DNA of 64,000 bases from Eledone cirrhosa (Eukaryota). The translations under genes were made by a program, and so were the position numbers. The notes below the pieces were generated by a model. It worked only from the letters and a program-made list of their open reading frames with translations. It was not told the origin of the DNA and did no database searches. Numbering within the stretch: the stretch's first letter is position 1; each line of letters starts with the position of its first letter. This document shows positions 2,274 to 46,800 of this stretch, piece by piece. Location of the stretch: the NCBI GenBank assembly GCA_964016885.1, contig OZ024755.1, positions 17,546,001-17,610,000 on the forward strand. Direction: 5' to 3'.

Positions 2274-2697
2274 GTAGGAGGTGAGTTTTATTGTAGTACA
2301 ATAAAGCAATGCAGATATCGGATAAGAAGCACTCTACAGTTTGTGGGACTGGAGTATGCATAATATAAGATCAAAAGATGGTTAAAGGAGTTCCATATAT
2401 TTTATTATGCGCATTTCAAAAACAAACATCATCAAGCAATAATATTTGTGTTTTCATCAGATAAAACAGGAGAACATGATATGAAGGCTAAAAAACACTT
2501 GTTGATAGTGCAGTTTTAAATCAACATATATGTTGATTTAAAACTGCACTATCAACAAGTGTTTTTTAGCCTTCATATCATGTTCTCCTGTTTTATCTGA
2601 TGAAAACACAAATATTATTGCTTGATGATGTTTGTTTTTGAAATGAGCATAATAAAATATATGGAACTCCTTTAACCATCTTTTGATCTTATATTAT
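2274..2697 (-). mobile_element. Hammerhead fold-back element family A (PLE-terminus-like) in (TA)n
   Basis: Near-perfect palindrome 2361-2528/2529-2696, plus a non-duplicated tail 2274-2360; about 90% similar copy at 33983-34380. Confidence 0.85.
2400..2466 (-). ncRNA. Type I hammerhead ribozyme (family A)
   Basis: Minus strand: ttttat-CTGATGA-aaacac...gttttt-GAAA-tgcgca-TA-ataaaa. Stem I ttttat/ataaaa, palindromic stem III atgcgcat, AUA triplet. Mirror copy 2591-2657 (+) has one stem III substitution. Confidence 0.8.
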
Positions 2698-2739
2698 ATA
2701 TATATATATATATAAATCAGAATCGAGCCAGTTTAAAAC

Positions 2740-2910
2740 TATTTAGACCATTACTCAACAGAGAACTCAAAGCTTTGGGTTGTAGTGTATGGTTATATTA
2801 TAAAGAGTTGGAACCTGGCAGCAGAGCTCTTGCTATTTCAACAGCTAGTTCAAGTCTTGAACCAGCTGTTGAAATGGCAAAGGCTCAGCTAATGGGTCCC
2901 ACCTCTTTAA
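2740..2910 (-). mobile_element. Old diverged member of fold-back family D
   Basis: Short hairpin ...tttcaacagctagttcaag/cttgaaccagctgttgaaa...; minus-strand tail acactacaacccaaagctttgagttctc resembles family D tail actctacaaccctaagtattgagtactc. Confidence 0.45.
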
Positions 2911-4498
2911 TATATATATATATATACACACACGCATATACATATATGTATATGTGTGTATAGATATTATATGAGGCAGCAGTGATGGGTGATGCTTCTT
3001 ACTTGCCATATTTTTATATGTGATTTTATTCAATAAGCCTTCCTTTAAAACATTAGATACCAACCTGTCCAAAACCAGCTCTGGTTCGACGAACCAAATC
3101 ATCTATTTTAAAGAGTTGCTATATAAATAAAAATCTTTCAACATATTTTTATATAAGAACCTTTTTTTAAGTTATATTACAAATATTATCTTGGTAATGA
3201 AATAACTTATAATTTTAATATTTTAATAAATTCTTCTATATTCTTCAATAACTAATTCCAGTAGATTATATTTCAATAGAAACTATCTTCAGTAATGTAA
3301 CATTATACCAATAACACATGCACATATATGTACATATATGTACACACATTCCATATGTATATTTGCTAAATGTGCATATTTTTATTTTCTCTTAGCTAGT
3401 TAGAATTTGTTCAGCTGTGGCTATAAATTTACTAAGTCTAAGGCAATTGGGGGCATGTGTATACACACATACACACACACACACACACACACACACACAC
3501 ACACACACACACACACATAGATACATACATATATACATATATATATATATATATATATATATATATATATATACACACACACACACACATATATATATAT
3601 ATATATATATATATATATGACTGTGTTTTTGTGTGTGCATGTGTATATATATATATATATATATATATAAATATATATATACACATGCACACACATTAAA
3701 ACACAATCATAAAAGCTTGCACATGCACACACATTCTTATTGTTCTCCAGAAATAATTGGCATGAGATATTTGCAATGAACTCTTCAGTATTCCAAACCA
3801 AGCACTTCTGAAACCTAGCTGCAGTCAGAGAAAATCCTGAAGGAAATTAAAATTCTTTATTCCCAGAAAGTATTGCAACCCAATTCAAAGACTGAATCTT
3901 TGGCAATGTAAAAGTATTAACACAAACGTTTGAATATATATGCATCCACACAGATACACAACACACACAAATGCACAAACATACTGACAGATATATACAC
4001 AAATACACAGGCACATATACATTTTTATTAGAACAGTTATAGCATCAAAGACTTAATGGTTAGATTCGCTAATGCAGCATTCTTCATAATATCCCCTGGT
4101 AATTCTTTCTTGGCCTTTAACAGCAGAGAAATCTCTGAGGGTAAAAATAAGCATTTTTCTTGGAATATAGTGAAAAGATTCTAGCTAGGAGATGTCAATC
4201 AACTGAACAAAATAAGGTGTTGCATGTGTTTATTCACACTCACATGCACACACATACATATATACATATATACACACATATATATATATAGAGAGAGAGA
4301 TAGATATATAAACATATATATATATATATATATATATATATATATATATATATATATGTATATACATACACACACACATATATATATATATATATACATA
4401 CACACATTATGTATTAAAAAAACATGCAAACATGAAAAAATAAGCGTTAAATGATGATGATGATGATGATTGATGATGATATATATATATATATATAT

Positions 4499-4704
4499 AA
4501 CGAAGGAAATATGGTAAGGAACCATGTGGACCATAACGCACAAAAAGTACTCAATACTTAGAGTAGTAGAGTGGGTAATAGGAACGAGTAGGACCCCGAC
4601 GGCTGAGCTCAAGCCGTTTCGACGGCTAATTCTGGACAAGAATCAGTCCAGAATTAGCCGTCAAAACGGCTTGAGCTCAGCCGTCGGGGTCCTACTCGTT
4701 CCTA
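4499..4704 (-). mobile_element. Fold-back element family D carrying the 3' half of a hammerhead
   Basis: Inverted arms about 4578-4637/4646-4704. Minus strand GAAA-cggct-tgagctc-agccg-TC (GUC triplet, palindromic loop gagctc). Tail actc...gagtac. In (TA)n. Confidence 0.8.
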
Positions 4705-5480
4705 TATATATATGTATATATATATATATATATATATATATATATGTATATATATATGGGAGGTTGAGTAATAAGTAAACAGAAATAAACAAAACAAATG
4801 ATGCAGAAAATCATCATCATCATCATCATCATCATCATCATCATCTTCGTTTAACGTCCATTTTCCATGTATATTAGTTTAATGCTTGAAATAGTAGGAA
4901 AACAGTTTTAACACTTCAGACATAAGTCCTTCATCAGAAAACAGAATTAGAAATAAAAGATGAAATAAAAAGATAGAGTGTGAGAAAAGGATGGAACAGA
5001 AAATAAAATTCATAGGAAAAAAAAAAACATCTGTGTATTCAATATTTTAAATTGAAAGCTAAAAGGATCAACGTTGTTTGACTATGAGAAATAAACTAAT
5101 AACTTTTGGCATATAAACACTGGAGACAGAAGCTAATCGTGCAGGGGCAGTGCTGTGCAATTAGTTTCCATCTCTAGGGTTTATTTGCCTTGATTTATTA
5201 GTCTATTTTCCATAGTCAAAATCTTCCTATCACTCAACAGTTCTAAAAATAAATTGTTTCCATATACTCACACACACACACACATATATATATATATATA
5301 TATATATATATATAAACATTTATATATATATATAAACATTCATAAATATCATCATCATCATTTGTCTGCCTCCCCCTGCTTGCAAGGGTTGGACATTTAT
5401 ATATATATATATATATATATATATATATATATATATATATATATATATATATATAAATGTATATATATATATATATATAT

Positions 5481-5928
5481 ACAATATTAAATAAATGGAA
5501 AACTATATTTATAAAACCATATTTATTTCATTATATATATTTCGGGGATATCATATTAACAATATGCTATGCCTTCATCAGACAAAATACAATATAAACA
5601 GTTTTATAGATAAATATATTCGACATACCGTAATAAACATCAACTTCATTTTGAAAATGAAGTTGATGTTTATTACGAGATGTTTATTACGGTATGTCGA
5701 ATATATTTATCTATAAAACTGTTTATATTGTATTTTGTCTGATGAAGGCATAGCATATTGTTAATATGATATCCCCGAAATATATATAATGAAATAAATA
5801 TGGTTTTATAAATATAGTTTTCCATTTATTTAATATTGTAAATATACTCCAAGTATTTGTCGAGTGCTTTTATATCAGTTATAAATATTTACTAGTTGTA
5901 ACCCAACAATTTTAAATATAACTTTACA
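5481..5928 (+). mobile_element. Hammerhead fold-back element family B
   Basis: Arms about 5481-5650/5652-5840 with a small central 13-nt duplication. Tail atactccaagtatttgtcgagtgc... running into (TA)n. Confidence 0.85.
5732..5795 (+). ncRNA. Type I hammerhead ribozyme (family B)
   Basis: attttgt-CTGATGA-aggcatagcatattgttaatatgatatcccc-GAAA-tatata-TA-atgaaat. Stem I attttgt/atgaaat, hairpin stem II, palindromic stem III. Mirror copy at 5525-5588 (-). Confidence 0.78.
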
Positions 5929-45359: not shown

Positions 45360-45537
45360 GTAATAATAATAAATTTGAAGACTAAAATCCAAAGAGGGCT
45401 CGATAAGGATAAATATATATTAAATATATAAGAACCGTAGAGCAAATATTTATTAAAATAACAGTTTCAGAAGATCCCGTTAAGGGTGAAAGCAGCAATT
45501 CTTTGCTTAAACTTTAATCTGTTATTTTAATAAATAT
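45360..45537 (-). mobile_element. Family E copy
   Basis: Tail on -, variant HHR on + at 45463-45513; (TA)n on both sides. Confidence 0.72.
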
Positions 45538-46061
45538 ATATATATATATACACACAGTAGAAGATGCAGTAATTAGATGAAGACTGCGAAAATCATGGGC
45601 GGAGCTGACCTCAGATCACTGAAGCTCACAGAGGAAATGACAAAGGACCGTGACGAATGGTGAGATGCTGTGCTGAAAAGGACCCATCCCACCCTTGCAA
45701 GCAAGGAAAAGCAGACGTATGATGATGATGATGATGATATGTGTGTGTATGTGTGTGAAAGGCGGTGAATTAGTAGTCTTTAGACCATCGGCTAGAATGC
45801 TTTGTTGTATTTGTTTCAGCTCTCTGCACTTTGAGAACAAATCTACCATTCGAGGTCGATAAAAAGCCTGCAGTCACAGTCACTCACTCTATATTTACAG
45901 ATATAACTTGATTTATACATAAAATATAAAAAGATACAGAAGCGAAAATCAACCCAAACTAAAGAGTGAGTGTGTTCTGTTATTATTTCTGGCAATATTA
46001 TAACAATATGACCCTCCCCAAGTATAACAATATATACATATATATATATATATATATATAC

Positions 46062-46265
46062 GTTATTCCGGGTTGAATCGGAGGTAACCACAGTAAGTAA
46101 GGTACTCAATACATAGCAGAGTATAAAAGTTTTAATATAGATGAGATTCTACAGGACTAGAACTGTTTCATTCATTAGAAATCATCAGGAATCTTTAATA
46201 TAGATGAGATTCCTGATGATTTCTAATGAATGAAACACTTCTAGTCCTGTAGAATCTCATCTATA
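46062..46265 (-). mobile_element. Hammerhead fold-back element family C with two opposed ribozymes
   Basis: Near-identical to the 20741 copy on -. HHR on - at about 46145-46194 and inverted HHR on + at about 46207-46257. Confidence 0.85.
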
Positions 46266-46307
46266 TATATATATATATATATATATATATATATATATAT
46301 ATATATC

Positions 46308-46592
46308 CAGGGGGTGTAACTTGGAGTTACTGCAGGTTCACCCGGGAGAGCACTCGATGTTTAGGTTCACGTCTGTGATGAGGTGTAGAGCTATACAGAG
46401 TGTAATATATTGAAAGGATAACAAGGACGATTGATTACTCCTTCATTGCATTTTAAAGGGTCCGTCGAGCCGCCGATTATTGAATCGGGTAGGATCGATA
46501 TAGATCGAACCTTGAGCTGATCAGTGGTGAAACACGTGTCACCTACCAATAAATGTAATGGAGGAGTAACCAATCTTGTTATCTTTTCAATA
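46308..46592 (-). mobile_element. Fold-back element family I (hammerhead 3' half)
   Basis: Imperfect inverted arms about 46406-46452/46551-46592; GAAA-cacgtg-TC on +; tail on - acactc...tcgagtgc; between (TA)n. Confidence 0.6.
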
Positions 46593-46604
46593 TATATATA
46601 TATT

Positions 46605-46800
46605 ATTAAGGCTAAATAGTGAGTCTTGTTACTCTGGAGTTTCGCCTGTTTATCACAGGGTCATCAGACAAGATGACCCTGTGTTAAACAGACAAAACTC
46701 CAGAGTAACAAGACTCACTATTTAGCCTTAATAAAATGAATATTAAAACTCTACTTCGGTATTGAATAAACTATTCTCTCAGCCATTAACCGCATATGGA
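46605..46800 (+). mobile_element. Hammerhead fold-back element family G
   Basis: Minus-strand HHR tcttgt-CTGATGA-ccctgtgataaacaggc-GAAA-ctccagag-TA-acaaga (46624-46673), inverted arm and tail aaactc...ttgaat; fragment at 36498-36551. Confidence 0.8.

What the first reader, a model, noticed from the sequence alone, without database searches (positions are those of the whole stretch)
2360..46740. The inverted arm always stops a few bases before the RCTC stem-loop and fuses to (TA)n
Seen: the second (inverted) copy is never full-length. A ends ...cttatatta|(tgcatACTC). B ...aatattgta|(aatatACTC). D ...ttcctat|(tacccACTC). E ...aataaatat|(ttGCTC). F ...tattatata|(attagataGCTC). G ...ccttaataa|(aatgaatattaaaACTC). 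C ...catctatat|(taaaacttttatACTC). I ...tcaatata|(ttacACTC). Independent copies of a family (A x2, B x3, D x3) use the same endpoint, while the hairpin apex varies. Inference: the stem-loop positions an internal initiation or nicking site about 2-15 nt upstream, where an AT-rich microhomology pairs with the (TA)n target. One cDNA would start at the RNA 3' end and a second at this internal site from the opposite target strand (twin-priming-like), producing the fold-back.
Basis: partly seen in the sequence, partly recalled or inferred. Interest (0 to 1): 0.82.

Follow-up and report, generated by a model that had tools for sequence, protein, structure and literature searches.

The report
Twin hairpins set Penelope copy ends
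These mirror-image repeats are stubs of Penelope-like jumping genes whose copies end at one of two fixed points, one at each end of an insertion and each just before a small conserved hairpin, which likely tells the copying enzyme where on its RNA to start.

Summary
The junctions are real, but they belong to a known class. The fold-backs are truncated copies of Hydra-clade Penelope-like retrotransposons (PLEs); intact RT + GIY-YIG masters lie elsewhere in the genome. The tail-less inverted arm is the published PLE 'tail' asymmetry, and internal RT initiation was shown in vitro in 2024.

Two parts of the reading are wrong. The tail-less arm is not always the inverted one: it is the long, ORF-bearing arm in 12 of 25 insertions. 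And neither start is the RNA 3' end.

What is new: a second RCTC/GAGY hairpin follows the tail end. I predicted it from families A and B and found it in D and E, and as a variant in C; it was not found in H. 475 of 482 TA-flanked ends lie within about 20 nt 5' of one hairpin. Family A has 6,149 versus 6,172 junctions of the two types. 114 of 116 classifiable fold-backs carry one of each. The bulged hairpin covaries and recurs in distant Hydra elements.

I found it in no paper searched; this scan noted twin hairpins before, on other DNA of this genome. Raw reads were not checked.

The parts
2274..2696 (-). Family A fold-back A1: tailed arm 2528-2274, tail-less arm 2529-2696, (TA)n on both sides; hammerhead cores at 2460 (-) and 2597 (+)
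   Evidence: full-length master L050/L108
2331..2355 (-). Hairpin 1 of A: ACTC stem, 2-nt 3' bulge, upper stem, GAGT, then GCTT. The tail-less arm corresponds to an end at 2360-2361
2274..2360 (-). PLE 'tail' of A (87 nt) between start site 2 and start site 1. Hairpin 2 would follow but is absent from terminal copies
4500..4705 (-). Family D fold-back D1; hairpin 1 at 4572-4549
   Evidence: master L210-L213
5480..5927 (+). Family B fold-back B1; hairpin 1 at 5846-5865; hammerhead core 5739
   Evidence: master L159
7663..7869 (+). Family D fold-back D2; R of RCTC at 7795
8787..9122 (-).
20741..20877 (+). Family C solo tailed copy C1; hammerhead core 20747, hairpin 1 at 20813
   Evidence: master L288
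20932..21170 (+). Family F fold-back; hairpin 1 at 21113; tail abuts another repeat
   Evidence: ORF-bearing relative L058
26074..26294 (-). Family E fold-back E1; the tail-less arm is cut at -15 by the neighbouring B-type insert
26296..26571 (+). B-type solo tailed copy; hammerhead core 26385, hairpin 1 at 26489
27548..28111 (+). Family B fold-back B2; hairpin 1 at 28028
30209..30343 (+). C-type copy C4; inverted part ends at -36 (exception); hairpin 1 at 30290
33985..34380 (-). Family A fold-back A2; hairpin 1 at 34064
38005..38150 (+). C-type fold-back C3; hairpin 1 at 38132
38731..38881 (-). Family E fold-back E2; hairpin 1 at 38787
38918..39201 (-). Family B fold-back B3; hairpin 1 at 38998
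39904..40096 (+). Family D fold-back D3; hairpin 1 at 40025
42730..43026 (+). Two further tailed stubs (X1, X2) with bulged hairpins at 42799 and 42966; X1 relatives follow a GIY-YIG ORF end
45360..45537 (-). Family E fold-back E3; hairpin 1 at 45443
   Evidence: master L260/L261
46061..46266 (-). Family C fold-back C2; hammerhead cores 46188 (-) and 46213 (+); hairpin 1 at 46122
46307..46594 (-). Family I fold-back; hairpin 1 at 46401 with a 40-nt insert; no ORF-bearing master tested
46603..46800 (+). Family G fold-back; textbook hammerhead at 46667 (-); hairpin 1 at 46748 with a C(UUCG)G loop; no master tested

Best explanation
The fold-backs are truncated insertions of Hydra-clade Penelope-like retrotransposons whose two ends stop at two fixed sites, each 3-15 nt before a bulged RCTC/GAGY hairpin, and these hairpins are likely the RNA signals that set where reverse transcription starts. 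Shown: the 5' leader of the master runs hammerhead, site 2, hairpin 1, tail, site 1, hairpin 2, ATG; an insertion carries one end of each type; both arms come from the same source copy in young families. Inferred: the GIY-YIG domain cuts both strands of (TA)n; each 3'-OH pairs by 1-3 bases with UA just before a hairpin; an RT bound to that hairpin copies upstream from there; and the two cDNAs are joined head to head by repair. Because both sites lie in the 5' leader, most cDNAs would run off the RNA 5' end after 60-260 nt, giving the short palindromes. Long copies would need a transcript through a tail-bearing downstream pLTR, a tandem unit or a circle.
For: [quoted passage not shown] Two-site ends: 475 of 482. 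Genome-wide family A forward-strand junctions: 6,149 site 2 versus 6,172 site 1. One of each: 114 of 137 short pairs and 25 of 26 long pairs. Hairpin 2 was predicted from A and B, then found in D (439 matches, control 0, 98 of 100 listed the same read-through) and E (411, control 0, 98 of 100), and in C as GCAC/GTGC in 16 of 20 loci. Pairs above a 2-nt bulge: 26 of 28 and 24 of 26; 49 against 26.7 +/- 3.0 in shuffles, 0 of 10,000 reaching it. The motif is present in 5 of 8 metagenome loci, all five with a 5' region in view, and by eye in published sea cucumber and coral consensi. 5' ends cluster about 30 nt after a TATA-like box in D and C. All 6 arms under 200 nt that are paired with a long arm are tailed, as a solo transcript would predict. 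Two internal starts bracketing the tail, with both strands extended, are shown in vitro for another PLE (PMC11167929).
Against: There are no biochemical or RNA data for these elements, and raw reads were not examined. No second hairpin or read-through was found for H (7 chance matches); G and I were not tested; the first pattern for C failed (48 scattered matches), and C's hairpin 2 has no upper stem. In the anole PLE, RT starts inside an AC-rich stem-loop without homology to the target, and the printed stretch shows no RCTC/GAGY. I picked the 29 hairpins by eye, and the shuffle ignores relatedness. 5' clustering is weak in A and unresolved in B and E. Rfam listed no hammerhead in two regions at E up to 10; Pfam and PDB sequence searches found nothing for the ORFs. 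21 of 137 pairs have an off-site end.
Confidence: 0.72

Rival explanations
1. The hairpins are endonuclease recognition sites in DNA: the GIY-YIG domain resolves a tandem or circular DNA intermediate with staggered cuts before hairpin 1 and hairpin 2, leaving the tail on one side.
For: Craig 2021 attributes the tail to EN-mediated resolution. Frangieh cites earlier work in which the Penelope EN needed the tail sequence for cleavage. The GAGY-RCTY sequence is conserved beyond what pairing requires. This would also give one end of each type.
Against: D and C arms stop at a TATA/initiator-like point, as cDNAs running off an RNA would. Upper stems tolerate G-U pairs, and UUCG and GAAA tetraloops occur. 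In vitro RT starts match tail ends in another PLE.
Confidence: 0.13
2. Copy-back with stalling: one cDNA starts at the tail end, folds back at its own 3' end, copies itself and stalls at hairpin 1, so the tail-less arm is a DNA copy of the tailed arm.
For: Arms of one insertion are nearly identical in young families (A 0.6% versus 4.3% between insertions, B 1.0% versus 4.8%), and many short copies have a symmetric apex. Self-priming has been proposed for PLEs (PMC3846280).
Against: The tail-less arm is the longer one in 12 of 25 ORF-bearing insertions, e.g. 3,593 versus 110 nt in L102 and 4,300 versus 122 nt in L136, so it cannot be a copy of the tailed arm. Long arms read through both hairpins internally. 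It does not explain hairpin 2.
Confidence: 0.07
3. One reading: one cDNA starts at the true RNA 3' end and a second at an internal site before the single stem-loop.
For: The two-ended geometry and the short TA overlap at junctions are as described.
Against: Read-through copies go on from the tail end into hairpin 2 and the ORF in A, B, C, D and E; nothing suggests a processing site there, and the hammerhead lies upstream of both sites.
Confidence: 0.05
4. Assembly or library artefact (polymerase fold-back chimeras).
For: One locus, L104, is a 9.9-kb palindrome that includes the flanks (99.9%), with the same end on both sides, so such artefacts may exist in this assembly. Raw reads were not checked.
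Against: Real cases are asymmetric with unique flanks; arms of older families differ by about 5% (29 of 32 D pairs are non-identical); end-points are family-specific over thousands of loci; the layout is published for PLEs.
Confidence: 0.02

Closest known systems
Hydra clade of C-terminal EN+ Penelope-like elements (Craig et al. 2021, PMC8557442; includes Hydra-1_Obim)
   Same: RT followed by GIY-YIG; RW[KRT] and DKT motifs; CxCx5C linker; no CCHH; CxxC and CxH around E and N; hammerhead in the pLTR; (TA)n targets; inverted 5'-truncated copy; tail at one end only.
   Different: Tails here are 66-99 nt, not 30-40. The paper's main text has no mention of hairpin, stem-loop or bulge, although the motif is visible in its File S7 consensi. 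The 1:1, one-of-each rule was not quantified in the passages read. Units are 3.5-3.9 kb, against under 3 kb.
Poseidon element of Anolis (PAc; Frangieh et al. 2024, PMC11167929)
   Same: Two internal RT start sites near the 5' end of the ORF that bracket the genomic tail; both target strands cut and extended; AT-rich target; RNA downstream of the start site is required.
   Different: PAc starts inside one AC-rich stem-loop within the ORF, with no homology to the target. Here the sites are in the 5' leader, each just 5' of its own bulged hairpin, with 1-3 nt of TA overlap. Different clade.
Adineta vaga Penelope insertions (PMC3846280)
   Same: Head-to-head inverted pLTRs, optional tail, solo pLTR pairs.
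   Different: Explained there by self-priming on an antisense template. The arm-length data here argue for two separately primed cDNAs.
L1 twin priming (recalled, not from a call)
   Same: Both target strands prime cDNAs on one RNA and give an inversion.
   Different: In L1 one primer uses the poly(A) end and the second anneals at variable internal sites, giving inverted non-overlapping segments. Here both sites are fixed and the arms overlap as an inverted duplication.
[quoted passage not shown]
   Same: CUGANGA...GAAA core with a short palindromic helix III in the pLTR.
   Different: The stubs here are inverted pairs cut from autonomous elements, not tandem retrozyme arrays.

Membership tests
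EN+ Penelope-like elements | Single ORF with RT and GIY-YIG endonuclease | tested here: met
   [quoted passage not shown] Atlas look-alikes at 0.96-0.98 carry HTH_animal, GIY-YIG and RVT_1 families on 18-100% of members. Pfam and PDB sequence searches were blank.
EN+ Penelope-like elements | Tandem or partial-tandem organisation (pLTRs), inverted 5'-truncated copy | tested here: met
   pLTR-ORF-pLTR in L050; tandems of 3,896 nt in L108; inverted arms in 26 ORF-bearing loci.
EN+ Penelope-like elements | Tail present at only one end | tested here: met
   114 of 137 short and 25 of 26 long pairs; tails are longer than the 30-40 bp described.
EN+ Penelope-like elements | Hammerhead motif in the pLTR | tested here: met
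   CUGANGA...GAAA cores with stems in A, B, C, F and G by pattern and eye, same form as File S2 of PMC8557442. Rfam did not list them. Cleavage was not tested.
Hydra clade | RWK-type N-terminal motif and DKT in place of DKG | tested here: met
   R-W-[T/R] and SDKT in A, B, C, D and E; definition.
Hydra clade | CxCx5C linker, no CCHH, CxxC and CxH flanking E and N of the EN | tested here: met
   Family A and L054 C-termini show all four. Not seen in full for B-E, whose fetched pieces stop earlier.
Hydra clade | Insertion into (TA)n | tested here: met
   146 of 152 site-1 and site-2 ends of A are TA-flanked.
Hydra clade | Monophyly with Hydra RTs in an RT tree | not tested
   Published Hydra proteins were compared by eye only; no tree was built.
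Hydra clade | Window families F, G, H and I have a Hydra-type master | tested here: inconclusive
   A relative of F is followed by a Hydra-type ORF (L058); H showed no read-through; G and I were not searched.
Neptune / Nematis / Naiad clades | CX2-5CxxC finger plus CCHH inside the GIY-YIG (N-terminal EN for Naiad) | tested here: not met
   A has one Cys in the GIY-YIG core, a CxCx5C linker and a C-terminal EN.

The most novel reading that the evidence does not exclude
Hydra-clade PLEs are obligate two-ended retrotransposons. One RNA carries two tandem, portable RT-loading hairpins of about 20-25 nt; each loads one RT-endonuclease onto one strand of a cut (TA)n; every insertion is made of two cDNAs started at hairpin 1 and hairpin 2. 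The tail exists to carry hairpin 1 to the 3' end of the next transcript, which would explain the tail, the inverted pLTR and the need for more-than-unit copies in one rule.
Probability: 0.5. Interest if true: 0.78.

Novelty: new variant of a known kind. Interest (0 to 1): 0.58.

Why it matters
How PLEs make their tail and their inverted, partial-tandem insertions is an open question (stated in PMC8557442 and PMC11167929), and their RT is the sister of telomerase. The twin bulged hairpin, the 1:1 junction count and the one-of-each rule turn it into a precise, mutable model with a defined RNA element and young, intact proteins to test. If the hairpin is portable, it would be a short signal for RT initiation at a chosen internal point of an RNA. 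It also tells annotators that tens of thousands of short TA-flanked palindromes in this genome are PLE leaders, not MITEs or microRNA precursors.

Tried and rejected
Rfam on the whole window (best 150 of 353 shown) and on two small regions gave only microRNA and snoRNA look-alikes below gathering scores, with no hammerhead listed; rejected as palindrome artefacts.

A DNA search of the genome with an A copy returned nothing because common words are skipped; patterns were used instead. Pfam and PDB by sequence were blank for the ORFs. Viral contigs held no relative.

I first took the elements for Neptune from memory; the motif definitions in PMC8557442 moved them to Hydra.

The second-hairpin pattern failed for C because C uses GCAC/GTGC, and failed for H.

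Hammerhead cleavage as the source of 5' ends: a few arms end near the predicted cut (A -51 to -45, D -26/-25), but there is no strong peak, so it is not claimed.

The window's 29041-29726 inverted repeat is two other short repeats facing each other across (TA)n, not part of this system.

Raw reads could not be examined, so expression, RNA ends and read support stay open. No structure or complex prediction was run. Empty orthologous sites could not be checked, as no relative genome is held.
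Full report
Observation. The window holds about twenty short insertions in (TA)n. Several arms carry CUGANGA...GAAA hammerhead cores. Exceptions are E1 (cut by a neighbour), C4 (ends at -36) and F (tail not TA-flanked). G, H and I have variant stems.

What the elements are. An exact 21-nt pattern from A's tail occurs 8,785 times in the 3.0-Gb genome, with control 0. 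[quoted passage not shown] A protein search gave 144 scored matches, many with 821-codon open frames, and tandem units measure 3,896 nt. B, C, D and E are likewise followed by related ORFs, 42-57% identical to A. The motifs match the Hydra clade as defined in PMC8557442: RWK-type, DKT, CxCx5C, no CCHH, CxxC and CxH, (TA)n targets, hammerheads. That paper lists an octopus member. No tree was built, and masters for G, H and I were not shown.

Two ends, one of each. With R of RCTC as 0, 155 A ends in 107 loci plus the window fall at -12..+1 (64), +82..+90 (88) or elsewhere (3); 79 more hits read through (overlapping loci not merged). With identical contexts merged, 475 of 482 TA-flanked ends in A-E fall within 20 nt 5' of hairpin 1 or hairpin 2. 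Most loci were picked by tail or ORF patterns, so I also counted genome-wide: 6,149 site-2 and 6,172 site-1 junctions of A on the forward strand (reverse counts are inflated by overlapping matches and were not used). Of 137 short head-to-head pairs, 114 have one end of each type, 1 has two tails, 1 has none, and 21 have an off-site end; in the 32 randomly placed loci it is 9 of 10. Of 40 regions taken around intact ORFs, 26 showed both ends: 25 are one-of-each, and the longer arm is tail-less in 12. The exception, L104, is a palindrome over the whole 9.9 kb including flanks and looks like an artefact. So 'the inverted arm always stops' should read 'one arm stops at site 2, the other at site 1'.

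The second hairpin. Read-through copies of A and B show GCTC...GAGC 4-10 nt after the tail end. I used this as a prediction. D gave 439 matches (control 0), with 98 of the 100 listed sharing the same hairpin; E gave 411 (control 0), 98 of 100. C failed at first; its read-through has GCAC-5 nt-GTGC, intact in 16 of 20 loci. H gave only 7 chance matches. G and I were not tested. In 29 hand-picked hairpins the form is a 4-bp lower stem, a 2-nt 3' bulge (TT in 17), a variable upper stem and usually RCTY after it. The first three pairs above the bulge are paired in 26 of 28, 24 of 26 and 18 of 23, while a bulge of 0, 1 or 3 gives 5 of 29, 3 of 28 and 5 of 28 for the first pair. Shuffling partners gives 26.7 +/- 3.0 against 49 observed (relatedness not controlled). 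A metagenome scan returned 8 related loci. The five with a leader in view all have the hairpin, two of them clearly twice. By eye in File S7 of PMC8557442, Hydra-1_Ajap begins with both hairpins, Hydra-2_Ajap and Hydra-2_Amil end with hairpin 1 plus a tail, Crog and Obim show imperfect versions, and Hydra-1_Amil is unclear.

5' ends and source. D arms stop at -70..-62 in 83 of 170 cases and C arms at -73..-65 in 27 of 96, each about 30 nt after a TATA-like box and at an initiator-like word (consensus recalled). A is broad (17 of 113 at -181..-173); B and E are unresolved. Arms of one insertion differ by 0.6% in A and 1.0% in B, against 4.3% and 4.8% between insertions. In older C and D the gap is small (5.6 versus 6.9%, 5.1 versus 8.5%), and in E (4 pairs) there is none. 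Junctions overlap the target by 1-3 bases, but other TAT/ATA positions are unused.

Mechanism. Shown: identity, two sites, one-of-each, twin hairpins, shared source in young families. Inferred: both strands of (TA)n are cut; each end primes just before one hairpin; and the two cDNAs are joined head to head. PLE RTs lack RNase H (recalled), so both could read one RNA. A solo transcript has hairpin 2 only in its leader, which predicts that very short arms paired with long ones are tailed: all 6 under 200 nt are, and one of 219 nt is not. Copy-back stalling fails on arm lengths. DNA-level resolution by the endonuclease remains the main rival.

Comparison with print. I read parts 1-2 of 4 of PMC11167929 and the text of its three readable supplements (figures and the GenBank file unseen; these may bear on whether PAc has a related downstream hairpin). 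Of PMC8557442 I read passages and supplement parts 2, 52 and 53 plus search hits. Of PMC3846280, PMC4209133 and PMC13282606 I read passages. Of bioRxiv 2026.07.22.740005 I read part 1 of 5 and passages, with supplements unseen. The one-sided tail, the inverted copy and two internal starts are in print. The twin bulged hairpin was not found in searches. Older subscription papers on the Penelope tail and Repbase reports were not searchable.

Verdict. A real feature of a known retroelement clade, with a cis-element and a quantitative rule that I did not find described: new variant of a known kind, interest 0.58.

Noticed in passing
G000:C1:14,234,969-14,255,163 and beyond (L199): A satellite of at least 20 kb with a 58-bp unit made of the AT-rich start site plus hairpin 1 of a D-type element, ending in a full tail and (TA)n; possibly repeated re-initiation or a mini-circle template.
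   Followed up: partly
L235, L236, L242, L243: Family C tails duplicated in tandem (58- and 83-nt units), in which the read-through enters hairpin 2 and resumes in hairpin 1, suggesting template jumps between the twin hairpins.
   Followed up: partly
L104 (G000:C1:362,767,900-362,777,800): The whole 9.9-kb stretch, flanks included, is a 99.9% palindrome: a likely assembly fold-back artefact. Similar symmetric pairs of ORF hits may be the same.
   Followed up: partly
hairpin 3' sides: The sequence GAGY-RCTC after many hairpins is itself self-complementary, so hairpin 1 and hairpin 2, or two RNAs, could pair through it.
   Followed up: no
window 36664-37334 (+): An open frame with coding-like composition that ends like a terminal host exon, followed by a 3' UTR; by eye it resembles the C-terminal KASH peptide of nesprin-type proteins (recalled, untested).
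   Followed up: no
window 35170-35960, 47660-48260, 49335-49660: 3' fragments of an RTE-like LINE sharing their 3' end with abundant short repeats that end in (GAT)n; many sit in or next to (TA)n.
   Followed up: no
window 29041-29726: A 343-nt near-perfect inverted repeat formed by two copies of a short repeat facing each other across a 138-nt (TA)n.
   Followed up: partly
window 51600-53880: A tandem array with a unit of about 62 nt, not related to the PLE stubs.
   Followed up: no
window 27075-27520: Three tandem copies of an E-type tail-less end with (TA)n, apparently duplicated with the microsatellite after insertion.
   Followed up: no
G000: Family A is very young: dozens of 821-codon open frames, many tandem or head-to-head, so it may still be active.
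   Followed up: partly
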